Positions 126-61,937 of a stretch of DNA of 64,000 nt are shown here, one piece after another. Both the position numbers and the translations under genes were made by a program. Position 1 is the stretch's first letter, and the number at the start of each line of letters is the position of its first letter. The notes beneath the pieces are model-generated. The model was not told the DNA's origin and did no database searches. It was given only the letters and a program-made list of their open reading frames with translations. The stretch spans positions 608,001 through 672,000 of the forward strand of contig CAVQNT010000002.1 in assembly GCA_963714275.1 (NCBI GenBank), written 5' to 3'. This DNA comes from Candidatus Bathyarchaeota archaeon (GTDB taxonomy: Archaea > Thermoproteota > Bathyarchaeia > Bathyarchaeales > DTEX01).

Positions 126-696
126 TCAAATTTTTTTCTCTTTAATCAATGACGGAATTCTGAGTTTTATTGCTTCGTAAATGAGGTATCCTCCAGACAT
201 GCTTAGTAAGCCATGGATTAGGTTGAACACGGCTGTTAGAGGAGTTGTTAAAAGAACCAACTCAAACGTCATTGGGTAATACAACGGGAGAACTATGAGA
301 TTCGCCAAAGCCATGACCACCACTCTTACTATGCATCCAGTAAAGAACGAAGCAGGTTTTGCAAGTCTCAGGCAGTTTTTGAACATCGTTAAGCCGATGA
401 GCATGCCGAGGACTGTAGAGAACTCGAGCTAACGCTTTCATGAATGCGCTGATAACATCTCCGCTGCGGGCAAGGATTGCTAGCATCGCCACAATGGAGG
501 TTGTGGCTCCTGACGTTAAACCCGAGAGAAAAAAGGACAGCACAATCGGGATTCCTGTGAAATCGAATTTTAGGTACGGAAGCCACGGGAAGACGACTTT
601 GAAGCCCGAAAATTTCATGGCGTAGTCAAAAACGACGACGAGGGCTCCTAAAATCGCTGTTTGGGCAATGAAGGTTGTGCTCATTTTGGCGTTCAA
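126..696 (-). CDS. ECF transporter substrate-binding (S) component, one indel near 426
   Basis: Hydrophobic protein with S-component-like motif PWLPYLKFDFTGIP; ORFs 262..696 and 126..404 join if one extra base is removed (MKALAEFSTV). Confidence 0.7.
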
Positions 697-1060
697 TTCA
701 GTTTCAGTTCTTGATTGAATCTTGCCTTCTCTTTTTTAAGTTATCTACTCATAAATTAGTAACAGGCAATACAGGTCGACTAGTAAATGGCATCTTACTA
801 TTCTGTAGATACAGCACAATAAATGTATCCAGAAACTGTGCCTTTATGGTTACACTGAATTTATATCAATATACTCCCATTATTCTTTACAGAGGGAATG
901 AGGCGAAATGTTTTTCTTTCAAAAAGCCCCAAACTGGAATGCTAAGGCAGAATGTAAATCGGCTTTCTGATAGGACTTTTTTAAGTATACGCTTCGTTCC
1001 CTTTCTTGCTTGTAACGGAAATGTTTCTCGTCGTTAGTTCGTTGTGTTATGCATTTTTGT

Positions 1061-1612
1061 TTATATACCTAGGCTTTGACTAACATTCTGAATTCCTTTC
1101 AGCGCGATTTCGAGGAATTCTTCTTTGGGTATTCCGAGGTCTTCGCAGACGACGATTCTGTTCCTGTCAGCTCCTCTGGCGAAATCCTTATCTTTAAATT
1201 TTTTCTTAACGGTTTTCGCGTCAACGTCTTTGACTTTCTTTGAGGGCATAACCAAGGCGCAAGCTGACTATTAGCCCTGACGCTGCGTCGGAGGCGATGA
1301 GTCCCTTGTCTAAACGTGACTTGGGCATTACGCCGCTGTGCTCGTGGTTGTGTGCCTTAATGGCTCTCAGGGTTTCGTCTGGAACTTTGCCTTTAAGTAT
1401 TTCCTCGGCTATTATCCCGTGTTTCTCGAAGTTTTTAGTGTTTTTTCGTAGTCAATGTCGTGAACAAGACCCGTTAACGCCCATAGACTTCCGTCTTCAT
1501 TAAGATACTCAGCTAAAGCCTCCATGATCGCTTCAACAGCAATCATGTGTCGAACAATGTTTTGGCTTTTGACTTTTGCTTTAACTAGCTCCAAAGCTTC
1601 TTCGCAGTCCAA
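1061..1612 (-). CDS. HD (HDIG-type) phosphohydrolase, indels near 1262 and 1437
   Basis: RH...GLVHDIDYE motif and C-terminal KKFKDKDFARGADR typical of this HD subfamily. Confidence 0.8.
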
Positions 1613-1720
1613 AACAGATCACTATCATCAGCAAGTCAAAAACAGTTTCAAGGCATATTATTGGAAGTGGCGGTGAATTGAGTTTTTTGTAATGTTAAAA
1701 ATTTGGGGTTTGCGTGTGTT

Positions 1721-3875: not shown

Positions 3876-3975
3876 GCCTCTAAATAAAAAGAAGGCGAAT
3901 AAGCTAGGTTAACATCAAGGCACATTTATTTCTTTGTGTGTTAAAAACGAGAACTATTGCTCAGTCTTCACTTGG

Positions 3976-5908: not shown

Positions 5909-7106
5909 TTAGTTGAAGAAGTCTTCGTCTCCTTCAGGTAGGTGTTTCCTTGCGGCTTTTTCGTTAAATTCGACACCCATGCCTGGTTTGTCCCAGACTT
6001 CTATGAATCCGTTTTTCACCACGGGATTCGGAAGGCCTTCGACTATGTCGTACCACCACTCTGGTCTCCCAATCGGGTATTCGAAGGCAATGTAGTTTTT
6101 AGGTAATGTTGCTGACATGTGAACGAGAGCTGCGAGCCCAAACAGCCCGTTGAAGACGCCGTGCGGAGCCACGAGGATTCCGTGAAGGTCAGCGTACTCA
6201 GTCTGTCCATTTGAGTTCCGCTATGCCGCCTATGTCGCAGGGGTCTGGACCAATTATGTGAACAGCGTGTTTTTCGATGACATCCTTGAAGTTTTGTCTG
6301 AGGTAAATTTGTTCGCCAGTGTGGATGTTGGTGCTCGTGGAACGGGTGACCTCGCGGTAAACATCAGCTAAAGTATAAGGCGTGTAGTCGCCCGTGATCA
6401 TGTCTTCAAGCCACATCACGTTCAATGGCTCCAAAGCCTTGGCGAACTTGATTGCTGAAGGCACGACCCATCCTGGTCCGCAGTCTAAGGCGAGACCCAC
6501 ATCGTCCCCTAAAACGTCTTTCATTGCTTTTACGCATGCTATAATGTGTTTCAGTCCGCTTTCGGTTAAAAGCCCGCGGCTTATGTACGGTGAACCATTG
6601 TCGACTTCGCCGTAGAAAAAGTTGGGAACCACTGTGTGCATTCCTGCGTGGAAGCCGACGGGTTGCTTTATGATTGTGAAACCCTCTTTCGCATCCTTCA
6701 TTTTCCGCATGACTTCAGCGTAGTCTTCTGGAGAATTTCCTTTTATCGGAAACCTTACTCCGCCGTTGTAGACGCGGACTTTGTCTCGGATTTTTCCTCC
6801 CAAAAGCTTGTAAACTGGTAACCCAGCGGCTTTTCCAGCCAAGTCCCATAGTGCCATTTCGATTGCGCTTACTGCGCTTCCCCAGGGTTTGTAGCTTCCC
6901 AGCTTTCGGATTCTGAGCATCACTCTTTCGATGTTGGTGGGGTCTTGCCCCAGAATGTACGGTTTGTAAAAGAGTACGTGAGGTTTTATGTAGGTTTTTG
7001 GGGATTCGATTTCTCCGATTCCACTTATGCCTTCGTCGGTTGTTATGCGGATAACGGGATTCTGTCCTATGATGGTGCATTTCAGGTCGGTTATTTTCAT
7101 GTCCAT
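5909..7106 (-). CDS. Mandelate racemase/muconate lactonizing (enolase superfamily) dehydratase, indel near 6200
   Basis: SAIEMALWDLAGKAAGLPVYKLLGGK, WLED, HTGE, KPGMGVE; the two ORFs join by removing one base (KWTAEYADLHG). Confidence 0.88.
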
Positions 7107-8711: not shown

Positions 8712-9864
8712 TCACATAATTTTGCCGTTTTTCATGATTTTCTGTTTCGTATCCGCCCTTTCTATGGTCGCCGTGGGATGGGTGACGAAGTCCCAGTGCA
8801 TGCTTGAGATCGAGGTTCCTCCGTAGCTGAGGTTGGAGCCGAATGCGAGGTGAACTGAGCCTCCGATCTTCTCGTCTGTGAGTATGTACCCTATGGCTTT
8901 GTTGATGGCTGGGTTGCAGCCTATGCCGAGCTCAGCAATATTCGTTGTCCGAACCTCTTTCTCTTTGCTGTCGATTTCGAGGCAACGTTTGAAGGAGTCG
9001 ATCATCTGGTCTCCGTTAACCTTCGCGGTGCACTCGTCCAGAAGCAGCTCTGCCATTCTTGAAGTGCAACGTGACGTCTTTGACGATCTTGTTCGTGAAC
9101 CTGTCTATTGTGACTGGACAAAACAGCGCCCCGTCGCCGAAGGTTTCGTAGGGCGCAATGAAAAGTTCGCCAGCAGGCAGGTTGTTACCCAGATCGCCGA
9201 CTTTAATGTCGTGATCGTCAACCAAGCCATCATCCTCGTTCAATCGGCGCCCCCTAATTCGGCACGTGAAGTCTGAGCCCTTATCGTCCGTTATGTGAAG
9301 AACGTCAGCGCCTTTCAGGAGCTCCGCAAGCCTCGAAGTGTTCTGTTTCAGGGTTGAAGTGGGAACCGCCATGCCTTCCACGATCAGCTGTTCAAGGTTC
9401 TCGTAGTCCACGTCATAGAAACTCGCAGCTTCCTGCGTCGGCCAGCCTGCGTAGGTCCATTTTTTGCCGGGTCCCCCATCTTCGCCGTAAAGGATTTTCC
9501 TTATCGGTACGTTGGCTTCGGTTCGGGCTGCGATTTTTTCGGGCGGAAAACGGGTTTGGACTGCGGGGTCCTTGAAGGGTTCAACCGTTATGTAGACGTC
9601 GGCTTCTTTTATGGCTCCCAAATAGTGCTTGGGCGTGACCTTCAGCGTTTTTTCGGGTATCTCGTCGTAGACTCGGGCTGAGTACTCGTCGGTGGACGCC
9701 ATTATGATCGGTTGGGCGCCTTTGCGATAGCACAGTATACCGATTTCTTCGAGTAGTTCTTGTGTGTGGGTGCCTCCTCGAATGATGACTGCTTCGCCTC
9801 TCTTGAGGTTCATGCCGTCAATGATTGCCTCGGCGCATTTTTGTATCTTTTCCTTCGTGATCAT
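8712..9864 (-). CDS. Aminopeptidase, M29 (thermophilic metalloprotease) family, indel near 9047
   Basis: NLPAGELFIAP, AELGIGCNP, DEKIGGSVHLAFG, HWD. Confidence 0.88.
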
Positions 9865-12965: not shown

Positions 12966-14558
12966 ATGAACAAAAACCGCGACGACAATATTCCTCACCT
13001 GCGCAAAAAGGGCACAGCCACGCAGCTCATCGTAGACGGCGAACCGTTCGTCATGCTGGGCGGAGAACTGCACAACTCAAGCTCTTCCAGCCTAACATAC
13101 ATGGAGCCAATCTGGTCACGTCTTGTATCGCTCGGTTTAAACATGGTCTTGGCGCCGGTCTCTTGGGAGCTCGTTGAACCTGAGGAAGAAAAATTCGACT
13201 TTACCATAGTAGACGGACTCATCAAAGAAGCACGTAGGCACAAGCTTAGACTCGTCTTCCTCTGGTTCGGAACCTGGAAAAACACCAGCTCATCCTACGC
13301 GCCTACGTGGGTAAAAACCGACCTCAAACGGTTCCCCCGAGCTCACTGTCACAAGGCAGGAACACCGACGCGGTTTCATGTTTCAGTAAGGCTGCCTGCC
13401 TAGCTGATGCCCGTGCGTTCAGCGCATTAATGAAGCACATCCGCGAGGTCGACGACCAAGAACACACCGTCATCATGATGCAGGTTGAAAACGAGGTAGG
13501 CATCCTAAGGACTCCGCGCGACCGCTGCCAAATGGCTGAAGAACGTTTCGCCCAGCAAGCCCCGAAGGAGTTAATGAAGAATCTGCAGGCTCACGCTGAT
13601 TGTCTTATCCCTTACCTTCAACATATGTGGGAGGCAGCAGGCAGTAAGACAGACTGGGACGTGGAAGGAGATTTTCGGTTCAGGCGCAGACGAGGTTTTC
13701 ATGGCATGGTACATCGCAAAATATGTAAACGCAGTGACTAGAGCGGGCAAGGCTGAGTATCCGATTCCCATGTATGCTAACGCGTGGCTGGGACCCCAAC
13801 ACGAAGGGCAGCAGCCCGGCGACTACCCAAGCGGCGGACCAATTGCACGCATGATGGACGTGTGGCGGGCAGCTGCTCCAAACATCGACTTCTTGGCTCC
13901 TGACATCTACCTTGAGGATTTCCGCGGAGTCTGCTGCGAGTATACGCAGTCCGGGAACCCGTTGATGATTCCTGAGGCTCGAGGCGATGAACAAGCTGCA
14001 GCAAACGTTTTTTACGCTGTTGCCATGCACGACGCGTTGTGTTTTTCGCCGTTCGCTGTAGACTCGATCGTTGAGCCGCATCCGTTGACCGCAAGTTACA
14101 TGCTGCTTTCGGAAATGATGCCCGTCATAGCAGAGCATCACGGCATGGGGCGGATGATCGGCTTCGCGGATGACCCATCGTATGGTCCAAGGTACAACGT
14201 TTTCACAGGTGGAATGACGAGAGGCTTCGACTGCGAACTAGGCGGCTACTGGCTGCGCGTACGCTTCAACAGGCCACTTGAAACGGGGAAGGTTCCAGCT
14301 GCAGGACTCATCATCGCTTCGGAGGACGACGAATACATCGTGGCTGGCGCAGGTTTCACGCTCAGTTTTGCACCTAAGCCTGGAGAAGAGGTAAACATCG
14401 AAATATTGACGCTTGACGAGGGCAGATTCGAAAAAGGCAGGTGGATTCCAAGCCGACGCTTAAACGGCGACGAGTCCCAAGGCGGCAAACTTGTCTACAT
14501 GGGCGACGAACTATGCGTCCGCAAAGCCAAAATATACAGTTACTCCTTGACACAGTGA
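12966..14558 (+). CDS. GH35 beta-galactosidase-like protein with DUF5597 C-terminus, indels near 13345 and 13652
   Basis: GGELHNSSSS, LWFGTWKN, MQVENE, YPSGGP, APDIY, IPE, RRLNGDE across three ORFs. Confidence 0.88.
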
Positions 14559-15439: not shown

Positions 15440-16471
15440 CTATTGTTTGGTGTGCCAGAGCTTCGGGTACGTTCCTCGGGGCATGAGGACCCTGTTGTTT
15501 CTTGCGACTATACCGTGGTTTTTCTTGAGGATCTCCTGAGTCTTTGCGGTTGCAGTCGCTAGAGCTACGGCTTCGCCCTTCAACGTATAGATGCATGTCT
15601 CGGTATCTGGTTCGATGCCTGTTTCCAGCGAGACAACGCCTGGCGCGGTTAAGTGAGCTCCATGACACAAAGCGTCCACGGCTGAGTCCCTGACATTAAT
15701 TTTAGGCAACAGTTCTAGGGCTTTCTCCATGGGCATGATGAACTTTCTGAGAATGTTTAGGTCCTGGGTTTTCTGCCATTCGCTATGCAGGTAAACCATG
15801 TCGTGCAGGGTGACGATGTTCGCTGTTTCGGTGAAGGGTCCTGACCTCGTCCTCCTGAGCTCGTGCATGTGGGCTCCGCATCCCAGAACCTCTCCTACGT
15901 CGTGGCAAAGCTCCTGATATAAGTGCCAGCTTCGCAGTCGACCTTGAAAAGGACGTTTCTTCCATCAACCTCTAGGACATCGAGAAAATAGATTTTACGA
16001 ATCCTAATCTGTCTTTTCACCGACGCGCGGATAGGCGGTCTCTGAAAAATTTTTCCCTGAAACTCCTCAAGAACTTGTTTAACGCGGTTCTCAGGCAAAT
16101 CTTGATGAACCTTCATGACGCAAACGTATTCTTTCCCAGAACCCAGCAACGCATGAACAACCTTCGTTGCTTCCTCGAGGGCCACAGGTAACACGCCTGT
16201 CACTTTGGGATATCCTTGACCAACTATGTGCCTAGGTCTCTAAGGTCCCGCCGTGACCCGCCTGTTTCACGCCTAGAAGGCGTCTCACCCAAGCTGCGAC
16301 CTCGTGGCTTGAGGGTCCCGGAGGCTTGTCCAAGTTTATGACGCCGAACCTGAGCATGTCGGGATATGGTCTTTCTTCAGGCTTGCATCCGCTGTTCGGG
16401 TCGGTTTCCACCTCCGACTTGGTAAGGAACTCCCGTTTCACGGTCCATGGAGGGGGGATACTGGGCATCAT
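15440..16471 (-). CDS. cbf5: H/ACA pseudouridine synthase Cbf5, with a 28-nt intron plus an indel near 15910
   Basis: LDKPPGPSSHEV, GHGGTL[D]PKVTGVLP, GTYIR, ELRRTRSG, PUA domain. Confidence 0.95.
16212..16239 (-). other. BHB-type pre-mRNA intron in cbf5
   Basis: GGGA-CCTT-AG|A-GACC...GGTC-AAGG-AT|A-TCCC forms a strict BHB; excision restores TTA GAT CCC AAA GTG (LDPKV). Confidence 0.92.
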
Positions 16472-16901: not shown

Positions 16902-17745
16902 TTAGGATTTTCTGGGCTTCTCCATTAGATTTTTCTTGAAGCTAAGGGTTCCATCCTTGAAATGGGGCTTTCTGAGAACAGTGTCGCTGCTTTTCTCGAT
17001 TTCGCGGGCTTCATCCACAAGTCTGGCGGCTGCCCTCATCATTTCGTGGGCTGCAGCAACCATGGGCACATAGGCGTTTGGGTCCTGAACTTTGAAACAT
17101 GCTTCCGTTGTTATTTTTGCTACTTGACAAGCCGTCTCGTAGGCTGCTAATGCTTTTGCTTTCGCGTATGGGTTTGAGAATCCAGCTGCTTCCACCGCTT
17201 TGGCTCCATCTATGACTATTCTAGGAGTCTCAAGTTTTGTGCCAGATTTTATGGAATTTATTGTCTTTTCTATGGTTTCGACGATGAGGTTGAAGGCTCC
17301 TGTTTCAGCCAAGACTTTTATTATGTCGGAGTTGTAGGCTGCCATCTCGGTTGGGTCGAGGAACTCTCTTCGGGCGCCAATTATCGAGTCGGCTTCCACG
17401 ATTATGTATCCTAAGCCTATATCCTCCATTTCCTTAGCGACCTTCTTGGTGGGACTGTCGGAAACCACTATTGCAGGCGTCTTTGCGGCAGTCTATCATT
17501 CTGCGGGCTTCGGTTGGTCCCGGCGTTGCCTGCGCTGGACCGACGAGAATTATGAGGTTTGTTTTCTGTTCCAACAGTTGTTTCGTGGCTTCTGCGCACT
17601 GTTTTGGTCCGAGCTTGGCACCTGAACCTGAAACTCTGACGTCGATATCGGTTCTTTCAGCCCTTTCATCCAAAAGAAATTCAATTAACGGCAAGGTTCC
17701 GATGCAGCCGAGCTTCAGGACGCCTATTTTTAATGCTTCGGTCAT
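16902..17745 (-). CDS. mtd: F420-dependent methylene-H4MPT dehydrogenase, indel near 17491
   Basis: KLGCIGT, LLDERAER, GSGAKL, IGARREFLDPTEMA, FSNPYAKAKA. Confidence 0.92.
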
Positions 17746-18747
17746 TTCGGCTTCTCCACCATTTTCTGCGCGATTTCCTGAGCCTTCACAGCATCCTCCG
17801 CCGTCACCTGAGGCTGCCTGTTTTGTTGTACGCATTCTATGAAGTGGTTGTCGAGTCTGGTAATGCCCCCACATCCTCGTGCCCTTCACCTCAACAGGCA
17901 CTTCTTTCGGTTCAGGATCCGAGCCATAGACAACTATCTTGTTGTTCCAGACCGCGTGTAGAACGTTCGTGTTGTCTCCGTAGACTTCAAGCCTGCTTGT
18001 GCTAGCCAACTGATTCACGGTGGCGCCGTAATGCAGAGAACCCACGATTCCTTTTCGGAGTTTGATTGTGCCCATCGTGTTGTAGCCGAGGATTCCGCCG
18101 AATTCTTTAAGCGGGGCGTAATTGGTCATCCACTCAACCTTCGCTATTTCGTCCTCGAACAGCCACCTCAGCATATCAATCGACCAAACTGAAAGCGTGA
18201 AATCGGGATACCCGCCGCTTTTGCTGATGTCCCACGCCCACGAGTCAGCAGGCCACTGTTCAGCTAAAGCAGCCGCGGGAATGAACTCCCTGAAATGCAC
18301 CGCAACGGGGTTCCTGACAACGCCTTCCTGAATCATCTCTTTCACCTTAACGTAAACGGGAGCAAACCTGAAGTTCAGAACAGGCATCAGTATAACGCTG
18401 TTTTTTTGGGCTGTCTCCGCCATCTTCTTAACTTGCTCAATCGTCGGCGCCAACGGCATTTCGCATAAAACGTGCTTGCCCTTTTCTATGGCTTTCATCG
18501 CCGATTCGTAGTGGAACGGCGTTGGCACAGACAAAACCACCGCATCAACTTCGGGATCACTTAGAATCTTTTCGTAGTCTAGGCAGTACTTTACGCCGTA
18601 CTTTTCTGAAAGCGCCTTCACTCTTTTTTCTGTCCTTGCGCCTATGACAATCAGGTTTGAGCCAGGTATCTTCCTGAAAGCCGGGACATGCGCTTTTCCG
18701 CCAACGAATCCCACTCCAATCACGGCTACTCCAATGTTGTCAGCCAT
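17742..18747 (-). CDS. Gfo/Idh/MocA oxidoreductase, indel near 17856
   Basis: IGVGFVG Rossmann motif, GKHVLCEMP, NFRF; the corrected frame ends at a TGA overlapping the mtd ATG. Confidence 0.88.
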
Positions 18748-42244: not shown

Positions 42245-42387
42245 CTTCGTTCAATCCTCCTTTCCTAATATAGACTCTTTTTTATTTTATGTTTCTACTA
42301 CCTTATGAAAAAAAATTCATCTTAAAAGGAAGGATTAAAGTTTATCAACGTTTCAAACATTCTATTGCTTAAGGTGAGTATAGCTGA

Positions 42388-43442
42388 ATGAAACTGATTG
42401 ACCTAAGAAGCGACACAGTGACCTTGCCCACCGAGGAGATGCTTGAAGTTATAAGGCACGCGGAGCTCGGCGACGACGTTTATGGTGAGGACCCGACGGT
42501 TAACCAGCTCGAAGAAATGGCAGCAAAAAAAATGGGTAAGGAAGCAGCCATGCTTGTGCCAAGCGGGACGATGGCGAACCTTGTCTCCGTGATGTGCAAC
42601 ACGAAACGGGGAGACAGCGCAATACTGGAAGCAGACTCGCACATCTACTGGTATGAGCTAGGCGGAATCTCAGCCATCGCAGGAGTTTTGCCTTTACCAG
42701 TTAAGGGAACAATGGGCGTCCTTGACCCTTTGAACATTGAGGCTGTGATTAGACCAAAGGGCTTGCATTCAGCTGAGGACGACGCTTATTTGTATAGAGA
42801 ACACGCATAACAGGGCTGGAGGTACAATCGTCACCCCGTCTCAGATTGAAGCGATAAGCAGGGTCGCAAAGAAGCATAAGCTGAGACTTTACATGGACGG
42901 AGCCCGAATTTTCAACGCTGCGGTTGCCTTGAAGGTTGATGTGCAACAGTTCACGAGACACGTTGACAACCTGATGTTCTGCCTCTCGAAAGGGCTAAGC
43001 TGCCCCATAGGCTCCATTGTAGTAGGCACCGAAGAACACATCCAGAAAGCCCGAAGAGCCAGAAAAATTTTAGGCGGAGGAATGCGGCAAGCGGGCGTCA
43101 TAGCAGACTCCAGGCATTATCGCGCTGGAAAAGATGATAAATCGATTAGAGGATGATCACTGCAATGCCCGTTTGCTGGCTGAGGGATTATCGAAAATTG
43201 AAGGAGTCAAGGTGGACATGAAGACTGTTCAGACCAACATGGCCATGTTCGATGTAGATGGTTTGGGGATCAAAGCCGACGTTTTCGTGAAGCAGCTGAA
43301 GGGACACGGCGTCCTCGCTGGAAATATGAGCAAAACAAGGGTTAGAATGGTTACGTACCGAGGTATCGAAAAGGAAGATATCGAAAAATCGTTGGCAGCA
43401 ATCGAGAAAACAATAAAAGAACTACTAACAAAGATTAGTTGA
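42388..43442 (+). CDS. ltaE: Low-specificity L-threonine aldolase, indels near 42770 and 43106
   Basis: [38 protein letters not shown]. Confidence 0.92.
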
Positions 43443-48625: not shown

Positions 48626-49709
48626 TCAATAGACGGTTGCGTCAACGACAACATGCCACTTGAACGGAGCGACCTCTCGTACGGTTTTTACTGACAGATA
48701 TCCGCTAATGTTGCGACCAGTTTTACTTATAGCCTCGGTCAAATGTCTTTTCGCTGCCTTCATCGCGTTCGCTCCTTCTGAAAACTCGTAATAGTGGATG
48801 ATTCCGCCTTCAGGCTTCAAAACCTCACAAGCAATGTCCACGTACTCCTCAGGCTCTTTCTGGAAGATTCATAATTACGCGGTCAGTGGTCCCACGTATC
48901 TTCCCTTTTACGACCTTTCTTACATCGCCAAGAACGGGCACAACTTTTCCCAGAACGCTGTTAGCAGTCACGTTCTTTTCCAAATATCGAACTGCGTCTG
49001 GATTCACGTCAACCGCATAAACCTTAACATCATTGCATAGTTTGGCTATTAATACGGAAAATGGTCCAACCCCTGCGAACATGTCGATTACGGTTTCGTT
49101 TTCTTTAACCTGCAAGGCGACCCTTTGATGCTCGTGAGAAAGCCTTGGCGAAAAGTAAACTTTACTTAAATCAACAAAATACCTGCACCCGTGCTCCTTG
49201 TGAACAGTTTCTGTGTTAGGTAATCCTGCGATGACTTCGTATTCCCTTAATCGGCATATTCCTTCCACAGCGCTAGACTTTGCCAGCACCGTCTGAATGT
49301 TTTTGTGGACTTCGAGGATTGCTTCGCCGACAACGGTTTTGTGTTCAGCCAGCTCAGCGGGGATTTCCACGACGGCTATTTCGCCCACAAAGTCTATGGC
49401 GTGAGGGAAACTTGCCCGAAGATTGGGAGGCAACCGTTCAGCAGCAACGTCAAGGGCACTTTTTGAGCGCTTATCTTGAACGACGAACTCGTGGACGACA
49501 ATTTCTAAGGCAACAAAATCCTTCCTAATTTCTTCGACATGCCCAGAATCAAGTTTCTTGACCACGGGAATAAGCAGAGAACCATTTTCAAGAATGATTT
49601 TAAGGTTTTTATCAAGTAAGCCCAAACTGGCAACTAGGCGGATGGCTTTTTCGCCTTGTTTTTTCGGTACTTTTAGGGCATAAGCCTTTGTTTTTGTTTG
49701 TTGACCCAT
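48626..49709 (-). CDS. trm5: tRNA m1G37 methyltransferase Trm5, indel near 48852
   Basis: VYFSPRL, DMFAGVGPF, IMNLP. Confidence 0.88.
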
Positions 49710-49774
49710 GAAACGGTTTGTTTCTCCTTGATTGCGCAGATTTATTTTTCAAATGACTACGTTTGTCTGCAGCT

Positions 49775-52178: not shown

Positions 52179-53473
52179 ATGAACAGTGAGCAAGCACAAC
52201 GGAAACAGAAACGAGGTTCAGTTAAGGGTGAAAAGCGTTTGAAAACAACAATTAAAACGAAAAATAGTCGGTCAAGTTCCATTAAGGTAAGTGAGAATGG
52301 CAGATATTTTGTTGATTCTGGAGGCAGACCCGTCTTCTGGCTAGGCACCACGCAGTGGCAAATCTTTAGGGAGCACCCGTTGGCAGAGGCTGAGTTGATC
52401 CTCGAAAAGACGAAGAAGAATGGATTTAGCTTCGTCCAAGCAATGTTACTAGGCGTAGGCGACGGCACCAAACCCAACGTCTATGGCGAGACTCCGTGGA
52501 ATAACGATGACCCTGCAACGCCGAACGAAGCATTTTTCGAGCACGTGGACTCCGTGGTTCAAGTTGCCCACAAAAAAGGGCTAATTCTCGTGGCTGGGAT
52601 TTACCATCAAACGATGGGCAACCACGTAAACGAAAAAAACGCTCGAACGTGGGCACGATGGATTGCTGAACGGTACAGAGATGTGCCGAACCTGATTTGG
52701 TCGATGTATCCCCGAGCTGAACCCGAGTACACTCCGCTTATGAGGGAGATGAGCTGCGGGGCTTCAGCAGAGCGACAAAGGTTTCCACTTGATTACCGTT
52801 CATCCTGACCCTTCGCCGACTTCATCTAGCACCTACCTGCATGATGAGGGCTGGCTGGCTTTCAATTCGATGCAACCTTGGGGGTACGTCGAATTAATGT
52901 ATTCCATGATCACCCACGACTACGGTCTGAAGCCCGTGAAGCCCGTGGTTATGGCAGAGGGCGCCTACGAGCAGGGCACAGAGTACGGGTTCGACGTTAC
53001 ACCGTTGTGGGTTCGCAGACAAGCCTACTATTCGTATTTGGCTGGCGCACACCACAGCTACGGGCACAACGACAGCTGGCGAATGCTCCCAACGTGGAAG
53101 GAGGCTTTGGATGCGCCCGGCGCAAAACAGATGGGCATCCTAAAGAAATTTTTCCTTGACCTTGAAGAATGGTGGAACCTTTTCCCTGACCAAACAATCC
53201 TTGCAAGTGGCGGACAAACCGATGGTAGACTGCTGAACCTCGCTGCACGCCATAAGGACGGAAAATGGGTAATCGCATATTTTGCCTACAAAGCCTCGTT
53301 CAAAGTCGACATGGGAAAGGTTACGGCGGGAAACAAGGCTGAAGCCTTCTGGATTGACCCAAGAAACGGCGAATCAACTCCAATGGGCAGTTTCACAACC
53401 AAGGTGATAAAAATCGTTCTCGACGCCTGATGGATGGGAGGATTCACTGTTATTGCTGAAAGCAAAGGATTGA
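52179..53473 (+). CDS. DUF4038 (apiosidase-like) glycoside hydrolase, indels near 52752 and 53410
   Basis: FWLGTTQW, TVHP, AEGAYE, VRRQAY, WIDPRNG. Confidence 0.8.
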
Positions 53474-54157: not shown

Positions 54158-54992
54158 ATGCCTGAACTTCCCGAGATTAAGGTCATTGCAGACTCAGATG
54201 GACAGGGAGCTTTCTGGAAAACGGGTCGCTGAAGTTGAGTCGAGGCAGCCGAAGAACCTTAATGTGGCTGTGGAGGACTTTGTCGAGGCGGTTAAGGGCA
54301 AAACCGTCAGCAACGTTACAGGCAGGGGCAAGTGGATATTCATGAAGCTTAAACCCGCGTATTTTTTGCTCATTAATCTCGGAATGTACGGCGAACTCCT
54401 CTACTACACGAAGGGGCAGAAGCTTCCTGAACGTTACCAATTCAGACTGACGTTTACTGACGGAAGCGGCTTCACGATTTTCTTCTCGTGGTTCGGGTAT
54501 GTCCATCTTGTCGCAGAAAAAGACGCCGCAAAACACAAGATGACAGCCAAGCTTGGCGTTGACCCCTTCGACGACGGTTTCACGTTCGAAAAATTCGACA
54601 ATCTGTTGATGTCCAAGAGAAGGACAAGGCTAAAAAGTTTCATCTTGGACCAGAAGAACGTCGCAGGCATCGGAAACGTCTACGCGCAGGACACGCTTTT
54701 CGAAGCTGGGCTGCATCCTGACCGCCAAATTTCAACATTAACAAAAGAAGAAAAGGAAAGTTTGTACAGCGCCATAAAACGGGTACTGAACCGAAGCGTC
54801 CAACTCGGTGGCTTGGCTTACGAGAAAGACTTCTACGGGCGGAACGGAAGGTTCGGCGGAAACGAGTTCCAAGTGGGCTACAGGGAAGGCAAGCCTTGCC
54901 CAATGTGTCAGACGACAATACAAAAAATCAGGACGGGAAGCACCTCCACATACATCTGCCCAAAATGCCAACCTCTAAAATCGGTTGGCTAA
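54158..54992 (+). CDS. Fpg/MutM family DNA glycosylase, indel near 54190
   Basis: MPELPE at ATG 54158, RGK, AGIGNVY, CPMC...CPKCQ. Confidence 0.88.
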
Positions 54993-55121: not shown

Positions 55122-56634
55122 CTATGGTTTCCCGATTTTTTCCCATATCGGCGGAATCCTTTTGTTCGCTTCCGGACCGAGTATGACGGGTTCTACGCCA
55201 CTGATTTCGCATAGGTACTCGAGTTTGCGGAGGTGGTTGCCTGAAACCGCTAGTATGTGGTTGCTGGGGAACAGCTTTGTGAACTCGTCGAACCCGCAGT
55301 GCAGCCTTGCGTGGACGTGTGGCCAAGTTGGGTTGGTTTCCTCGTTTATTGCCTTTCTTTCCTTGGGTGGCAGGTCGAGGGCTTCGCCTGAAACGATGAC
55401 CATGTAGAACTTGTCGTCCCAGAGCCCGAGGCGTGCAAAGGTTAATTCGCCAGCTGCAGCGTCAAACTCGACTGAGGCTCCGCCTGCTTTGAAATAGTAT
55501 TCCAGGGCTGGGTGAAAGGTTACCTTTTTGAAGTTCTCTTCGGGACTTGTACTTCGCGCCGCGTACCAGCTCGCGTGGTTTCCCGAGTTGCAGAAGTCCC
55601 ACATGTCCTTGTCGGGATGGTACAGTCGGACGTCCATGAAAAGCACGGGCAAGCCTCCGGTGATGTACTTGAGGAGCTGCATTGTGACGGCTGCGAGTGA
55701 GTCAGCTTCGGTTGCGCAGACGGTTGTTTCTTTCGTTCCGTTCCAGTCGTAGGGGTCGTTCATAAGCATCTCGGGAACGTCGCCGAGACACACGTACTCC
55801 GTTAGTTCACGCTGCCCTTTCAGCCCGCAGAAGTCGAATCCTTTCTCTTCGTTAACCATCTTCATGGATAAGTAGAGCTTAATCTGGGTCTTCAGGGTTT
55901 CTGGGGTAAGCATTTTCCCGTCGTACTTTAAGCGTGGACCCAGAAGATGTTCGAACCATTTCAGTCCCTTTTCTACTTGTTTCGGGTCAACCTCTTCCAT
56001 CTTCTTAACGAGTAAAAGCTGGTCAATCTGGCGGACCGTGACGCCGAACGTTTTGATTGTCGGGACGAGGTGGAAGTATCCTGTTTCCATGCCCATCGAG
56101 TGGCCTCCGTACATGCCGTAAACCTCGTTTTGGATAGTCGAATAGGCTTGGGACGCGTAAACCCAGTCAACTACTTTGGCTTGTGTCTCAGGGTCGTCCA
56201 TTCCGCCAACAATCCGTTGAGTCTTAATTCCAGCTTGACGCGAAGCCTCCGTCCGTGGCGAGTAACCCGACGTTTCCGGGGAACTTTCCGCTGTTGTTCG
56301 AAAGGCACAGGATTGGTTTGTTTCGACCTAGGCTGTTGATGAAGGGCCACACAAAGAACGGGAAATTCCACACGTAATAACACAGAATCACCTGCTTGCA
56401 GTTTGCCCTCGACAGTTCTTCACCGACCTTCTGAGCGGACCTGACTGAGGTTATGATTTCTGAGCCCATGACGACTTCCGGAGAGGTGCCGTCGACGTTT
56501 TTTGCTTCTTTTCTGATGATTTCAGCCCAACCCTTAACAACCTTAATGCATTCTTGGGTATTTGCCTTCCAGACATGTTCCCTTTCGTCATTAAACATGA
56601 CAAGACCGATAGGTGTGCTCTTCAAAGGTTTCAC
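55122..56634 (-). CDS. L-fucose/D-arabinose isomerase-like protein, indel near 56245
   Basis: ATEAD, FMDVR, CNSG, TFARL, WPH, SNH. Confidence 0.82.
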
Positions 56635-56931: not shown

Positions 56932-57739
56932 TTGGGTGAGCTTGTCTTCGTTGGGTTAGGACTTTTCGACGAGAACGATGTGTCTCTTCGTGGACTGAAG
57001 GAGGCTAAGTTGGCGGATTATGTTTTCGCTGAGTTCTATACGAGTTTGATGGGTGGTCTTTCATTGGAAAGATTGGAGAAAAAGGTCGGAAGGAAGGTCA
57101 CAATTGTTACAAGGAAAACACTTGAAGAAGAGAACGGAGAACTTATCTTGCATAAAGCTGCGAACATGAAGGTTGTTTTTCTGGTTTCGGGCGACCCTTT
57201 GATTGCGACTACTCATGTTGATCTGAGGGTTCGGGCGGAGAAGCGCGGGATAAAGACAAGTGTTGTGCATGGCACCTCAATCGTTTCAGCGGCGATGGGT
57301 GATTCTGGGCTTCAGAACTACAGGTTTGGGAGAAGCGTAACAGTTCCGTTACCTGAAGGGGGCGTGGTTTCTGAGACCCCTTACAACGTGGTCGGAGAGA
57401 ACAGGGCTCGAGACCTACATACCCTCTGTTTTCTGGACGTTAAAGCCGAAAAAAAGACTTTTCATGACTGTCAGGGAAGCCCTTGATATTTTATTGTCAA
57501 TAGAAAAGAAGAAACAAAAGCACGCCATAACCTTGGACAACATCGCTGTTGGCTTAGCCCGAGTTGGAGCTAAAGATGAAGTCGTGAAGGCTGACAGGAT
57601 AAAGGCTCTTTTAGGCTTCGATTTTGGCAGTCCGCCGCACATCCTTGTCTTTCCTGCACCTAGGCTTCACTTCATGGAGGCTGAGTCTCTCATTAGTCTT
57701 GCGGGTGCACCTGAACACGTGAACGAGTTGGTTGGGTAA
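56932..57739 (+). CDS. dph5: Diphthine synthase, indel near 57457
   Basis: FVGLGL, EFYTS, GDPLIATTH, GLQNYRFG, LHTLCFLD. Confidence 0.93.
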
Positions 57740-58015: not shown

Positions 58016-58482
58016 ATGGCTGAAAAAAAGAAGGAAAAGGTGGTCTTGGCCTCGGGGGCTTTCGACCTGCTACATTATGGGCACGTGTACTATTTGTCTG
58101 AGGCGAAGAAGGCGGGGGGCGAAAACGCGAAGCTAGTCGTCATCGTCGCCAAGGACAGGACGGTTGAAAAGTTCAAGGGCGCGAAGCCCATTATCTCCGA
58201 GGACCAGCGGAGGGCAGTTGTCGAATCCCTAAAGGTAGTTGACGAGGCAATCCTCGGCTACGAAGACATGGACATGCTTAGGGTCATAGAAAAAGTGAAG
58301 CCCGACATCGTCGCACTCGGTTACGACGAGGAAAGAATAGAGAAAGACCTCAGAAGCTTTTAGCTGAAAAAGGACTCGGCATCAAAGTCTTGAGGGTCAG
58401 CCAGTTCACCGAAAGGGACCTTGTTAGCTCCTCAAAAATCAAAAGACGAATCATCGAAAACTACAGGGCGAACGTAAAGTAA
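58016..58482 (+). CDS. ribL: Archaeal FAD synthase (cytidylyltransferase family), indel near 58355
   Basis: GAFDLLHYGH, VAKD, LGYD, SSSKI. Confidence 0.85.
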
Positions 58483-58483
58483 C

Positions 58484-58916
58484 CTAGGCCTCCTCGCTTT
58501 CCCGCTTGCTGAAGTATTTTATGCCTTCTCACTCTTCATAGCCAAGTTTTTTGAACAGCTCTTTAGATACCCTGTTGTGGTCCATGATTAAGGCACTGAA
58601 GATTTTGACGCCATTTTTGCGCAAAACCTTCTCCGCTTCAGCGATCAAAGCCTTGGCGACGCCTTGTCTCCTATGCTTTGGGTGAACGGCCAAGCGGTTT
58701 ATCCAGCCTTTCCGCCCGTCGCTGCTCGCGATGACGGTTCCTACGAGATGAGCATCCGTGAAGGCTCCGATGAAAAACTCAGGGCACATTCTCATTTGTG
58801 CTTCTATAGATGCTTTGCTGTCTCTTCCTCTGGGCCTAATCGGTAAATCCGCTTCTTTCCAGAGATTCACCATCTATCGTAGTCGCAAAAGTTAACGTTC
58901 GGATACAAAAATCCAA
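58484..58916 (-). CDS. GNAT acetyltransferase with indels at the 5' end and an in-frame TGA at 58529-58531
   Basis: DGRKGWINRLAVHPKHRRQGVA; the frame continues EGIKYFSKRESEEA after the TGA. Confidence 0.8.
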
Positions 58917-59015
58917 TCTTACCAATCCCAAGAAAACCTTTCAGCGTTCTAACTATTTTTGGCAATAAATATCTGTTAGTGAAAAAGGTTATTTTTAAGA
59001 TTTACCTCGTCGAAC

Positions 59016-60958
59016 CTAGGGCAACCCAAGAAGGGACAATATTCTGAATGTTACTCCGCCAACCAACAGCGCGAAGAGTATCTCGAACACCGTGATGAGT
59101 AGCGCTTTCTTCCAGCCGATTTCTTTAACGAGCGTAGCAATAGTAGCCACACATGGAATGTACAGCATGATCACAAGGGTGAACACAACCATCTGTACAG
59201 GCATCAAAACTGCAAGGTTTGACCCAAGCAAAGTAGCAAGCATAATTAACGTGGAGCTCCTTCCTGATCACGCCGAAGAAAAGGGCGATGCCCATCTCAG
59301 GCCTCAACCCGAGCCATGTCACCGTCAGGGGGCTCATGGCTTGAACAATCGGTCCCAACAAGCCAAAAATGTCCGCTGCCTTGATTGCGAGGGTACTTAC
59401 GATTATCAGCGGAAGAGCCATCTTGATGTATTCGCCTAGCCTGAACGAGGTTTGAGTCAACGCCGTCTTCAAGTGGGGAACCCGGTACTCACTCATCTCC
59501 ATTATGAGGTCAGTCGGTTCGCCGGGAAAAGCCTTGAACGCGAACCTTCCAAGCATCATAACAATGACCAAATTTACTAAGTAAAGCATCAACACCCATC
59601 CGAAGCCGACATATTTTCCGACTAAGCCAAGCACGACAACGGTCACGGCGGCGCAAGGCACCAAAGTAACGACGAAGATGGCTAGAAGCCGCTCCCGTTC
59701 AGTCTCCATTATCTTACATGCTAAACACGCGGGGACGTTGCAGCCGAAAGCAAGCATCACGGGGATGAAGGCTTTACCATGTAGCCCAATCTTGTGCATC
59801 ACCGCATCCATGAGGTAAGCGATTCGACTGAGGTAACCTGAGTCCTCAAGGAGGTAAAGTGCAAGATAAAACGGTACAATGTACGGAATAGCAATGGTGA
59901 CAGAAGCTTATGACGCCTTCCATGACTCCTCCCCAAAGCAGACTCCTTAACTAAGCCTTCTCCGAAAACTGCTGTGAAGATGGGTTCCAAACCGTAAAGG
60001 AGGCTGCCGAAGTAGCTGGAGACAAAGCCTCCGAAGGCGAAAATGGACCAGAAAACAAGAAGCAGGACGCCCGCCATTATGAGGTAGCCTGAGACGCTTT
60101 TGGTCGTGAGTTCATGGATACGTTCAGTTATGGTCTGCTTTGTATGTGGCTGAATCTTCTGAACTTGGCTCGCGATGCATCGGGCGGTCTCGTATCTTTC
60201 AGAGGCTACCACTGTTTCCATGTGTGTCGGTGAATTTTTCAATTTCTGTTGCTAGTTTTTTTGTGGTTTCAAGGATTTCGGGGGTTTTCTCGCGGATTTG
60301 CTTCTCGATTTCTTCGTCGCCTTCCAGCAGTTTGATGGCTGTCCATCGGGCTGGATACTTGAATTTTGATTCTTCAACGAGATTAACGAGCTTCTCGATC
60401 CTTTCCTCGATCTCTTTTCCGTACGTGATCCGGGTGGGTTTTACTTCACCTTTCTCGATTGTCTCAACAGCCTTTTCCAGCAGTCCGTAGACTCCGTTGC
60501 CTTTGATGGCTACTGTTGGAACAACGGGTACGCCCAGAATTTCAGCGAGTCTTTGGGAATCTACCTCTATGCCTTTCTTGGTGGCGATGTCCACCTGGTT
60601 TAACGCCAGGACCATTGGAACTTCCAGTTCCATCAGCTGCAGAGTGAAGAAGAGGTTTCTTTCAAGAACCGAGGCGTCGACAACGTTGATCACAAGGTCA
60701 GGCTCTATTCGAAGGCTATGTACTCCCTGGTAGACCCAGCTCCTCCAGAGAAAAAGTTGAAAGCGAGTAGATGCCAGGGAAGGTCGATAACATCGATCAG
60801 GTAACCCTCTAAATAAAGGGTTCCTTCCGCCTTCTCAACAGTCTTGCCAGGCCAGTTTCCAATGTGCTGATGCAGTCCTGTTAAATGATTGAAGATGACT
60901 GATTTGCCGACATTTGCGTTTCCAGCTAACGCGATGGTGAGTTTCTTTGCTGCTACTT
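59016..60958 (-). CDS. feoB: Ferrous iron transporter FeoB, multiple indels
   Basis: [39 protein letters not shown]. Confidence 0.9.
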
Positions 60959-61239
60959 GTCTTCTCCACGAGGATCTTTTCCGCCATGCCTCTTCCAAGC
61001 GCGAGCCTGGACCCTCTGACAATCACCTCTATCGGTCCGTGGAAGGGCGCTGCCTTCGAGATTTCGACTTGTGTTCCAGGAGTCAGACCCATGTCCATGA
61101 GCCTTCTGACGAACCCGTGGCCTTCGCCATGTCCCAATCCTTTTCCCCTGGGGTTCGGCGTTATTGAGACGATTACGCCTGTTTCTCCAGCCTTGAGTGT
61201 CGTCAATGGTGTCTTTAATCCGCTGTCTTGTGGTTCCAT
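60950..61239 (-). CDS. feoA: FeoA (3' end uncertain)
   Basis: [27 protein letters not shown]. Confidence 0.88.
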
Positions 61240-61937
61240 TTTTCCACCCCTGCGTGAGCATGAAAATCAACTCCTGATTTTTTCACTTTTACTCGAATGG
61301 CTGAGGCGATCTTTGAGGTTGTCTTTTTGTAAGTTCCGTTGGTTTGAAAAGTGACGGTGCCGTTGCGGAGGTTTCTATCGACGACCTTGACGTGAACTCC
61401 TGGTTTCAGCCCCAGCCTTTCAATGTGCTCAAGCATTGTTTGTCTCTCGTCGGTGATGCGGGTCACGGTTCCCTCTGCACCGAGGACTGAGGGTTGACAG
61501 CGGTGCCGTTGATTCTTCAGCGATCCGCCTGACAGCGTCGGTATAGGGTTTCCGTGGGGGCAGGTTGGGGGCTGTTCGAGGAGTTTCTCGATGTTTCTGG
61601 CGACTTCTTCGGTTACGCCGTGTTCAAGGTGGCAGGCAGTCGTGGATTCGGTCCCATTTCATCCTGAGCACGTCTGAAAGGAGCCTTTCGGATAATCGGT
61701 GTTTCTTAGAACTTGGAGGGCAATAGTTCGACCTTCCTTGGTGAGTTTTACACCTTGGTAGGCTTCGTGTTTGATTAAGCTCTTTTTTTCTAAGCGTTCA
61801 ACCGTGTTTGTGACTATCCCGGGTGCGATGTGAAGCATTTTTACGAGTTTGCTTGTTCGGGCTGCTCCGTCTCTTTCTTGGAGTCTGTAGATGGATTCGA
61901 GGAACTCTTCGATTTGGCTCGTTACTTCCTCAGTCAA
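61215..61937 (-). CDS. DtxR/MntR metal-dependent repressor with FeoA-like C-domain, several indels
   Basis: EEFLESIY, LTKEG, HRLSERLL, LEH, CPHGNPIP across frames. Confidence 0.85.

What the first reader, a model, noticed from the sequence alone, without database searches (positions are those of the whole stretch)
420..61660. Frameshifts cluster at AGCT: probable footprint of a genome-wide DNA modification
Seen: by manual reconstruction, about 28 of roughly 40 reading-frame breaks lie in or directly beside an AGCT that the corrected frame contains. Insertions inside the motif occur near 6200, 13652, 17491, 17856, 24335, 24580, 43106, 48852, 54190, 56245, 57457 and 59941. Bases lost from it occur near 1437, 13345, 27401 and 61640. 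A flanking base is gained or lost near 426, 1262, 2980, 9047, 15910, 30455, 40930, 42770, 52752, 58355, 59257 and 59907. Most other breaks are homopolymer runs. Established: nanopore basecallers make motif-specific errors at modified bases, and AGCT cytosine methylation is reported in some TACK archaea (Nitrososphaeria). Inference: this organism modifies AGCT, and the broken essential genes (srp54, cbf5) are intact in vivo. AGCT looks common here rather than avoided, which fits an orphan methyltransferase. The repairs were made by eye and could be biased toward the motif.
Basis: partly seen in the sequence, partly recalled or inferred. Interest (0 to 1): 0.75.

Follow-up and report, generated by a model that had tools for sequence, protein, structure and literature searches.

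The report
Assembly frameshifts clustered at AGCT sites
Most of the broken genes in this archaeal genome are not really broken: the assembly has gained or lost one base at the four-letter word AGCT, the pattern expected where long-read sequencing misreads chemically modified DNA.

Summary
I aligned the window to a same-genus genome, G002 (83-91% DNA identity). In an unbiased test over all 4-mers, AGCT ranks first for isolated one-base coding indels. Inside the window, 15 of 22 insertions are in or beside AGCT (1.4 expected). In 250 kb elsewhere in the genome the figure is 63 of 101 (6 expected). Overall 106 of 191 such indels are AGCT-linked, about 7% of AGCT sites.

The indels are artefacts. 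Contigs from four independent public runs, some otherwise identical to the window, lack them at 40932, 42386, 42775, 43107, 54192, 57457 and 58352. They split srp54 and cbf5.

The organism is a Bathyarchaeia archaeon. No C5 methyltransferase gene was found. A solitary N6_N4 methyltransferase (contig C5:127525-128244) is the reciprocal best hit of the only such enzyme in ammonia-oxidising archaea, where AGCT m4C is published. This makes it the best candidate. A mobile SPPY methylase plus HNH nuclease pair is the alternative.

The modification itself and the sequencing platform were not testable. This is a known kind of artefact at a new motif and lineage. Earlier notes of this scan report the same artefact at other motifs in other genomes.

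The parts
426..430 (.). extra G directly 5' of AGCT
   Evidence: window has one base more than G002
1262..1266 (.). AGCT followed by an extra G
6200..6204 (.). AGTCT, read as AG[T]CT; the gap placement is ambiguous and G002 has AGCC here
9046..9050 (.). one extra base directly after or inside AGCT (AGCTCT against G002 AGCCT); splits an M29 peptidase gene
13344..13347 (.). CA-CT where G002 has CAGCT: G lost from AGCT
13651..13655 (.). AG[A]CT, insertion in the centre of AGCT
15909..15912 (.). AGCT where G002 has AGCTT (T lost); splits cbf5/truB (TruB_N against TruB_C_2 plus PUA)
17490..17494 (.). AG[T]CT; splits the methylene-H4MPT dehydrogenase gene (mtd)
17854..17858 (.). AG[T]CT
24332..24336 (.). 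AG[G]CT
24579..24583 (.). AG[A]CT; splits a radical SAM gene
27395..27401 (.). AGCTG then one C lost; splits a glycoside hydrolase gene
30451..30456 (.). extra A 2 nt 5' of AGCT
38341..38344 (.). AG-T where G002 has AGCT: C lost
40928..40936 (.). AGCT[C]AGCT; splits srp54 (SRP54_N against GTPase plus M domain)
   Evidence: the base is left out in contigs of 4 of 4 runs
42382..42386 (.). AGCT followed by an extra G
   Evidence: left out in 4 of 4 runs; G002 alignment
42771..42775 (.). AGCT followed by an extra G; splits a Beta_elim_lyase gene
   Evidence: left out in 3 of 3 covering runs
43105..43109 (.). AG[A]CT; second break in the same lyase gene
   Evidence: left out in 3 of 3 covering runs
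48851..48855 (.). AG[G]CT; splits a Trm5/TYW2 gene
   Evidence: not among the rows shown
49769..49774 (.). T lost 2 nt 5' of AGCT
52752..52755 (.). extra base at the A of AGCT; splits an apiosidase-like gene
   Evidence: Mixed read support: left out in part of X4 (11.2 of 20.3 depth), not in X1 or X2
54190..54194 (.). AG[A]CT
   Evidence: left out in 3 of 3 covering runs
56244..56248 (.). AG[C]CT; splits the L-fucose isomerase gene
   Evidence: left out in X1, not in X3
57448..57459 (.). A-run followed by AG[A]CT, one base too many
   Evidence: left out in 2 of 2 covering runs
58352..58358 (.). G lost 3 nt 5' of AGCT
   Evidence: G put in by 4 of 4 runs
59254..59258 (.). extra G directly 5' of AGCT
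   Evidence: alignment to G004
59905..59909 (.). AGCT followed by an extra T
   Evidence: alignment to G004
59939..59943 (.). AG[A]CT
   Evidence: alignment to G004, which has CATCT here
61638..61641 (.). AG--T where G002 and G004 have AGCTT / GGCTT: two bases (CT) lost

Best explanation
The frame breaks are consensus errors of a long-read (most likely nanopore) metagenome assembly, not mutations.

Proposed mechanism: the organism, a Bathyarchaeia archaeon, carries a base modification at AGCT, most likely N4-methylcytosine on both strands. The basecaller or polisher miscounts bases there.

Error types:
- Most often one base is inserted between G and C (AG[A/T]CT).
- Sometimes a G or C is added directly beside the motif.
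- Sometimes a motif base is lost.
- About 7% of AGCT sites are hit. Most remaining errors are at homopolymers.

The enzyme most likely responsible is a solitary 239-aa N6_N4 methyltransferase at G000 contig C5:127525-128244. It is vertically inherited in this Bathyarchaeia family and orthologous to the single such enzyme of ammonia-oxidising archaea (AOA), whose AGCT is m4C-methylated.

Shown here: the motif bias; that the indels are artefacts; the gene inventory and its orthology. Inferred: the platform, the modification, and which enzyme makes it.
For: (1) Motif bias in the window: AGCT ranks first of all canonical 4-mers (7 of 22 exact and 15 of 22 lenient insertions).

(2) Independent replication in 250 kb of G000 contigs C1, C2, C3 and C6, outside the window, against 20 further G002 stretches. 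Insertions: 34 of 101 exact (1.64 expected, p 4e-35) and 63 of 101 lenient (6.05 expected, p 9e-51). Deletions: 13 of 48 (2.82 expected, p 2.7e-6). AGCT ranks first each time.

(3) Pooled classification: 106 of 191 events are AGCT-linked. Insertions are 78 of 123, against 6.3% at 20,000 random positions. Deletions are 28 of 68, against 17.4%. Spectrum: AG^CT +A 19, +T 15, +C 4; A^GCT +G 5; all 33 flank insertions are G or C. There are 1439 intact AGCT in the 308 kb aligned.

(4) G000 is the broken partner: the median stop-free frame across the AGCT-linked sites is 384 codons in G002 against 102 in G000.

(5) Reference-free check on the whole genome: AGACT/AGTCT is the top 5-mer of those tested for excess in +1 against -1 frame-switch zones (191 against 85, p 3e-7).

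(6) Contigs of four public runs from four studies lack the indels: 40932 and 42386 in 4 of 4 runs; 42775, 43107 and 54192 in 3 of 3 covering runs; 57457 in 2 of 2; a G is put in at 58352 in 4 of 4. One 505-nt contig differs from the window only by the gap at 40932.

(7) Broken genes include srp54 and cbf5.

(8) Enzymes:
- No PF00145 match in the genome.
- Candidate B is present in 16 of 18 same-family relatives.
- In the phylum sample it is in 8 of 8 of family f1 and 45 of 56 of family f21 at 42-47% identity.
- f21 carries amoA in 5 of 5 closed genomes tested.
- Each of those 5 has one strong B-like PF01555 gene and one strong Dam-family gene. The further weak PF01555 match is a TIGR01177/Trm14-like RNA methylase where inspected, in one genome, G222.
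- The AOA enzyme's best hit in G000 is B (41.6%, 3.5e-43); the next is 26%.
- B's neighbours are housekeeping genes.

(9) Literature:
- AGCT m4C at 96% of sites, with exactly two methylases (AGCT-like and GATC-like), in a Thaumarchaeota genome (PMC6329791 passages).
- 82-91% of AGCT modified in two Thaumarchaeota MAGs (PMC8919816 passages).
- About 70% of nanopore consensus errors fell in Dcm motifs, then homopolymers (PMC6591954 passages).
Against: - No direct evidence of modification: no raw signal or kinetics could be examined.
- The platform of the assembly is not known to me.
- Published R10.4.1 methylation errors are mainly substitutions (C-to-T, G-to-A; PMC11610603 passages). Here I scored only indels. 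My substitution test was confounded by a GC difference between the two genomes.
- Candidate B has a DPPF motif IV, and its nearest curated models and solved structures are adenine methylases such as CcrM and DpnA. Its assignment to m4C at AGCT therefore rests on elimination in AOA genomes, not on its own sequence.
- The only SPPY-type enzyme (cytosine-N4-like by my knowledge), P0001, is an alternative. It is not orphan.
- Read support is mixed at 52752 and 56246. 22 of the 34 indel rows were not shown, so 48851, 49770, 59254, 59908 and 59941 are unchecked by reads.
- Window deletions alone show no AGCT signal.
Confidence: 0.8

Rival explanations
1. The errors are bound to the sequence AGCT itself (a weakness of the basecaller or polisher at this k-mer) and need no DNA modification.
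For: The motif bias alone cannot separate sequence from modification. No signal data were available. The bias toward C before AGCT (44 of 90 flanks against 32% background, p 0.0015) shows some dependence on sequence context.
Against: Published work attributes motif-bound consensus errors to methylation absent from the training data (PMC6591954 passages; PMC11610603 passages). Earlier notes of this scan report the same artefact at other motifs (GANTC, GATC, CAGCKG) in other genomes, not at AGCT (unchecked AI notes). Two other highly contiguous assemblies, with 1862 and 2022 AGCT sites in 400 kb each, show no AGCT signal, but their platforms are unknown. A candidate AGCT methylase is present.
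Confidence: 0.1
2. AGCT is modified, but by the mobile SPPY-type methylase P0001 (G000 C2:149557-150387), which forms a restriction-modification pair with the HNH nuclease downstream. Candidate B is not the enzyme, and the system is not orphan.
For: P0001 and all 26 aligned homologues keep an invariant S-P-P-Y motif IV, which by my knowledge is typical of N4-cytosine methylases. PDB matches include cytosine-N4 methyltransferases. AGCT is the only motif with an error footprint, and P0001 is the only SPPY enzyme found. An HNH ORF lies directly downstream in 58 of 86 homologous loci.
Against: P0001 is patchy: 11 of 31 relatives and 42 of 401 in the phylum. It is not conserved in the AOA family where AGCT m4C is documented (6 of 56). 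It is only 25-26% identical to the AOA enzyme. AGCT is not depleted although a nuclease is present. A genome with a 69% identical homologue shows no AGCT error signal, but its platform is unknown.
Confidence: 0.25
3. The indels are real: site-targeted mutagenesis or gene decay at AGCT in this strain.
For: Only the assembly itself. The runs laid need not be the source sample.
Against: Near-identical contigs from four studies lack the indels. Essential single-copy genes (srp54, cbf5, trm5) are split. About 0.6 one-base coding indels per kb (191 in 308 kb) would leave few intact genes.
Confidence: 0.02

Closest known systems
Dcm (CCWGG) motif errors in Oxford Nanopore consensus sequences (Wick et al. 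2019, PMC6591954; passages read)
   Same: One short methylation motif carries the majority of consensus errors (about 70% there, 55% or more here), and homopolymers take most of the rest. The motif depends on the organism.
   Different: The motif is AGCT, the presumed modification is m4C rather than m5C, and the lineage is an uncultured archaeon. Here the errors scored are indels. The platform and basecaller are unknown.
AGCT N4-methylcytosine methylation of ammonia-oxidising Thaumarchaeota (M.Nca01I, M.NspBD3I, M.TarMY3I). Sources: table in PMC11033074 (passages); Hiraoka et al. 2019, PMC6329791 (passages). Ahlgren et al. 2017 was not seen, only as cited there.
   Same: A solitary PF01555 methylase that is the reciprocal best hit of the AOA enzyme. 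AGCT is not depleted. A Dam-family gene is also present.
   Different: Identity is only 42-47%. The host is a Bathyarchaeia family. Methylation is not measured here. My two searches found no paper holding both 'Bathyarchae' and 'AGCT' and none reporting AGCT methylation in Bathyarchaeia.
Methylation-induced errors in R10.4.1 assemblies (Hammerhead paper, PMC11610603, passages; Lohde et al., 10.1101/2023.09.15.556300, search listing and start of abstract only)
   Same: Native-DNA modification causes recurrent errors that survive polishing.
   Different: Those papers describe mainly substitutions. Here one-base insertions dominate (123 insertions against 68 deletions).

Membership tests
Modification-motif consensus errors of long-read (nanopore) assemblies | Errors concentrate on one short sequence motif far above chance | tested here: met
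   AGCT ranks first of all 4-mers in the window and in an independent 250 kb; 106 of 191 events
Modification-motif consensus errors of long-read (nanopore) assemblies | The differences are absent from independent sequence data of the same or a near-identical strain | tested here: met
   Seven AGCT-linked indels are absent in all covering runs of four studies. Support at 52752 and 56246 is mixed. 22 rows were not shown. The runs are Logan contigs with library type not on record.
Modification-motif consensus errors of long-read (nanopore) assemblies | The assembly was made from native-DNA nanopore reads | not testable with these tools
   The platform is not given. Only the error profile (motif plus homopolymers) and 10 contigs point that way.
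Modification-motif consensus errors of long-read (nanopore) assemblies | The motif is chemically modified in the organism | not testable with these tools
   No raw signal or kinetics were available.
Modification-motif consensus errors of long-read (nanopore) assemblies | A matching methyltransferase gene is present | tested here: inconclusive
   Four DNA-methylase-type PF01555 genes and one Dam-family gene are present. B is linked to AGCT by orthology and elimination. Specificity was not measured.
AGCT m4C solitary methylase of ammonia-oxidising archaea | Orthology to the conserved AOA PF01555 enzyme | tested here: met
   Reciprocal best hit at 41.6% over 209 aa, 3.5e-43; 45 of 56 genomes of the amoA-bearing family have the homologue
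AGCT m4C solitary methylase of ammonia-oxidising archaea | No cognate nuclease beside the gene | tested here: met
   The neighbours are a transaldolase-like gene, a radical-SAM-like fragment and an ABC ATPase, read by eye from the translations without a family search. Only about 1.4 kb on each side was inspected.
AGCT m4C solitary methylase of ammonia-oxidising archaea | Methylates the C of AGCT at N4 | not testable with these tools
   Motif IV is DPPF, and the nearest curated models are adenine methylases. In AOA the assignment follows by elimination: two motifs and two DNA methylases.
Type II restriction-modification pair (P0001 plus HNH) | Methylase and nuclease genes adjacent and co-conserved | tested here: met
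   An HNH ORF overlaps the methylase stop by 8 nt, matches PF01844/PF14279, and is adjacent in 58 of 86 loci from many phyla
Type II restriction-modification pair (P0001 plus HNH) | Recognition sequence known | not testable with these tools
Real mutational hot spot or programmed frameshift | The indel is present in the DNA of natural populations | tested here: not met
   Absent from contigs of four runs

The most novel reading that the evidence does not exclude
A family of Bathyarchaeia shares with ammonia-oxidising archaea a solitary, vertically inherited methyltransferase that marks essentially every AGCT with N4-methylcytosine. Genome-wide AGCT m4C would then be a housekeeping epigenetic mark spanning two classes of Thermoproteota, not a defence trait. 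It could also be read from assembly-error footprints alone, in lineages with no culture and no methylome data.
Probability: 0.5. Interest if true: 0.45.

Novelty: new member of a known kind. Interest (0 to 1): 0.3.

Why it matters
Practical: extrapolating 106 AGCT-linked and 191 total one-base coding indels in 308 kb gives roughly 900 and 1600 in this 2.64 Mb genome. Gene calls, pseudogene counts and the 91% completeness figure for this MAG are therefore distorted. Genes such as srp54, cbf5, mtd and trm5 should be treated as intact, and motif-aware or short-read polishing would repair most of the errors.

Biological: the footprint is indirect evidence that a Bathyarchaeia lineage modifies AGCT. 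My searches found no report of this. It also points to a testable candidate enzyme shared with ammonia oxidisers.

Tried and rejected
(1) Substitution errors at AGCT: I compared how well each 4-mer is conserved in either direction between G000 and G002. The asymmetry is dominated by a GC-content difference, with CG-rich words at the top. AGCT is unremarkable (0.59 against 0.65). Uninformative.

(2) Plain enrichment of k-mers in frame-switch zones against the genome: dominated by composition (CTCC and CTCGA rank first; AGCTG is 2nd and AGACT 12th of the 5-mers). I replaced it with the +1 against -1 zone contrast.

(3) Cross-genome test of P0001: 400 kb of a closed Bdellovibrionales chromosome that carries a 69% identical homologue. 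225 zones, no AGCT-related 5-mer (AGACT 5 against 3). The platform is unknown, so there is no verdict.

(4) Cross-genome test of candidate B: 400 kb of a 20-contig same-family genome with B and without P0001. 192 zones, AGACT 4 against 7. The platform is unknown, so there is no verdict. A 400-kb sample of G000 itself gives AGACT as the top word at only p 0.006, so the test is weak.

(5) Naming P0001's specificity. The genome scan returned 64-92% identical copies in many phyla but none from an organism whose methylome I know.

(6) A second error motif among the 85 events not linked to AGCT: none seen. There are homopolymers, and several sites still contain AGTCT or AGCCT nearby.

(7) An extended motif: all four bases occur on either side of hit AGCT sites, with only a preference for C before the motif.

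(8) ARAGORN found no tRNA in the window, while Rfam found one.

(9) Earlier findings on this genome and on look-alike stretches: none fit.


Full report
MATERIAL. The window is G000:C2:608001-672000 of a 2.64 Mb genome in 10 contigs, with GC of about 0.44, completeness 91% and contamination 3.7%. AGCT occurs 327 times in the window, exactly at the second-order Markov expectation, and at 0.95 of expectation genome-wide. GGCC (0.20 in the window, 0.34 genome-wide), CCGG and GATC are avoided. Names given by public sources to close homologues of one of its proteins, and the titles of the closest named records, read 'Candidatus Bathyarchaeia'. I take the organism to be a Bathyarchaeia archaeon.

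CHECKING THE OBSERVATION. A same-genus genome, G002 (170 contigs), is collinear with window 2-58885 at 83-91% DNA identity. blastn gave 129 indel events. Many are plain at the nucleotide level. The window reads AG[A]CT, AG[T]CT, AG[G]CT or AG[C]CT where G002 reads AGCT (13653, 17492, 17856, 24334, 24581, 56246). It reads AGCT[C]AGCT at 40932 and [G]AGCT at 426. Motif bases are lost at 13346 and 38343. For the tail of the window, G004 and G002 confirm 59254, 59908, 59941 and a two-base loss at 61640. 2980 does not, and the motif reading at 1437 cannot be verified.

IS IT MORE THAN CHANCE?
- On all 92 one-base events, AGCT ranks first only with exact placement (12 against 3.33 expected). It is overtaken by AT-rich words once slack is allowed, because intergenic indels between the two species are real and AT-rich.
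- I then restricted the set to 42 events that are isolated and lie in a long stop-free frame of G002. AGCT ranks first there: insertions 7 of 22 exact (0.33 expected, p 2.5e-8) and 15 of 22 lenient (1.38 expected, p 1e-13); all events 21 of 42 (4.87 expected).
- The 20 deletions in the window alone show no AGCT signal.

REPLICATION OUTSIDE THE WINDOW. I fetched the first 20 kb of 20 further G002 contigs; 250 kb aligned to G000 contigs C1, C2, C3 and C6, none of it in the window. This gave 521 indel events, of which 149 passed the same filter. AGCT again ranks first. Insertions: 34 of 101 exact (1.64 expected, p 4e-35) and 63 of 101 lenient (6.05 expected, p 9e-51). Deletions: 13 of 48 (2.82 expected, p 2.7e-6).

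POOLED RESULT.
- 106 of 191 events are AGCT-linked. Insertions are 78 of 123 against 6.3% at random positions; deletions are 28 of 68 against 17.4%.
- Spectrum: a base inserted between G and C (A 19, T 15, C 4, plus 5 ambiguous G), and 33 flank insertions that are all G or C.
- Several events classed as 'other' still contain AGTCT or AGCCT within a few bases, so 106 is a lower bound. The rest are mostly homopolymers, and no second motif appears.
- With 1439 intact AGCT in the 308 kb compared, about 7% of sites are hit.
- All four bases flank the hit sites, with a preference for C before the motif.
- A reference-free contrast of +1 against -1 frame-switch zones over the whole genome puts AGACT/AGTCT first of the 5-mers tested (191 against 85, p 3e-7).

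ARE THE INDELS REAL? No.
- The broken partner is G000: the median stop-free frame across the AGCT-linked sites is 384 codons in G002 and 102 in G000.
- Twenty public runs from 17 studies (sediment, wetland and peat metagenomes) hold part of the stretch.
- I laid the contigs of four of them, from four studies, on window 40500-60400. They leave out the extra base at 40932 and 42386 (4 of 4 runs), at 42775, 43107 and 54192 (3 of 3 covering runs) and at 57457 (2 of 2). They put in the missing G at 58352 (4 of 4).
- One 505-nt contig differs from the window by that single gap only.
- Support is mixed at 52752 (part of one run) and 56246 (one of two runs). 22 of the 34 indel rows were not shown.
- The split genes include srp54 (at 40932), cbf5/truB (15912), mtd (17492), trm5/tyw2 (48851), a threonine-aldolase-type lyase (42775 and 43107) and fucose isomerase (56246).

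WHY AGCT? Published work ties motif-bound consensus errors in nanopore assemblies to methylation that the basecaller was not trained on. About 70% of consensus errors fell in Dcm motifs, followed by homopolymers (PMC6591954 passages), which is the profile seen here. For R10.4.1 the reported errors are mainly substitutions (PMC11610603 passages). My attempt to score substitutions was confounded by GC content. Earlier notes of this scan describe the same artefact at GANTC, GATC and CAGCKG in other genomes (unchecked). This fits a motif set by each organism's methylome rather than a weakness at AGCT as such.

WHICH ENZYME? The genome has no PF00145 (C5) match. It has eight PF01555 matches that resolve into five genes and one Dam-family gene.
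- Candidate A (P0001, 277 aa, motif IV SPPY) sits directly upstream of an HNH nuclease ORF. The pair is co-conserved in 58 of 86 loci from many bacterial and archaeal phyla at 64-92% identity. It is patchy among relatives: 11 of 31 and 42 of 401 in the phylum. It is a mobile restriction-modification module of unknown specificity.
- Candidate B (239 aa, motif IV DPPF) is flanked by housekeeping genes. It is present in 16 of 18 same-family relatives, with identity falling with kinship. In a phylum-wide sample it is in 8 of 8 of its own family and 45 of 56 of family f21 at 42-47% identity.
- Five closed f21 genomes all carry amoA, so f21 is a family of ammonia oxidisers. Each has one strong B-like PF01555 gene and one strong Dam-family gene. 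The additional weak PF01555 match, inspected in one of them (G222), is a TIGR01177/Trm14-like RNA methylase.
- The literature reports exactly two motifs (AGCT m4C, GATC m6A) and two methylases in such genomes, with 96% of AGCT sites modified (PMC6329791 passages; PMC8919816 passages; table in PMC11033074).
- The Dam family is the GATC adenine methylase family (established knowledge). By elimination, the B-like enzyme is the AGCT enzyme.
- The AOA enzyme's best hit in G000 is B (41.6%, 3.5e-43), with P0001 far behind (26%).
- Caveat: by sequence B looks like an adenine methylase, so this assignment is an inference.
- Two natural-experiment tests on other contiguous assemblies gave no AGCT signal (one with a P0001 homologue, one with B only), but their platforms are unknown. 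They decide nothing.

VERDICT. The frame breaks are assembly artefacts. The most likely cause is modification of AGCT, probably m4C made by the solitary candidate B. Confidence is about 0.95 for the artefact, about 0.8 for modification as the cause, and about 0.6 for B as the enzyme. This is a known kind of artefact at a motif and in a lineage for which my searches found no report: no paper holds both 'Bathyarchae' and 'AGCT', and the three papers holding Bathyarchae, nanopore, methylation and motif do not report it (for two of them I saw only the listing). Supplements were not consulted.

Noticed in passing
window 3973-4160: Intergenic dispersed repeat made of about three 60-nt sub-units. It has 45 blastn hits in G000 (contigs C2-C6) and dozens of copies at 70-91% identity in G002 and G004. 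Its nature (MITE-like element, regulatory element or RNA) was not examined.
   Followed up: partly
window 56693-56821 (-): A 129-nt tRNA match in Rfam (49.4 bits, model 1-71), hence probably intron-bearing. ARAGORN found no tRNA in the window. Public contigs pile up here and break off with loose ends at 56687-56729.
   Followed up: no
G000 C2:148974-150387 (L028:858-2271, minus strand): SPPY-type N4/N6 methylase plus a 195-aa HNH nuclease, overlapping by 8 nt. The pair recurs at 64-92% (methylase) and 47-86% (nuclease) identity in Bathyarchaeia, Anaerolineae, Nitrospirota, Omnitrophota, Patescibacteria, Methanosarcinales and others. It is a very mobile restriction-modification module of unknown specificity.
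   Followed up: partly
whole genome and window: GGCC is strongly avoided (observed/expected 0.20 in the window, 0.34 genome-wide). CCGG and GATC are moderately avoided (0.36 and 0.42 in the window; 0.65 and 0.66 genome-wide). AGCT, TCGA and TTAA are not avoided.
   Followed up: no
G000 C2:291517-293428: A Dam-family methylase gene lies directly upstream of a circularly permuted PF01555 methylase (motif HPPY), which may be a two-methylase GATC-type module. A further PF01555 gene at C6:356263-357406 is itself broken into three frames.
   Followed up: no
G259:C1:1005339-1006853, G222:C1:1366355-1367845, G036:C1:386925-388457, G054:C1:1345865-1347431: In four of the five closed ammonia-oxidiser genomes examined, the Dam-family methylase gene lies within about 300 nt of amoA.
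   Followed up: no
window 16902-18747 (-): A methylene-tetrahydromethanopterin dehydrogenase (mtd) gene, split at 17492, lies next to a GFO/IDH/MocA oxidoreductase. The long ORF 17434-18747 reads from the oxidoreductase into the start of mtd.
   Followed up: no
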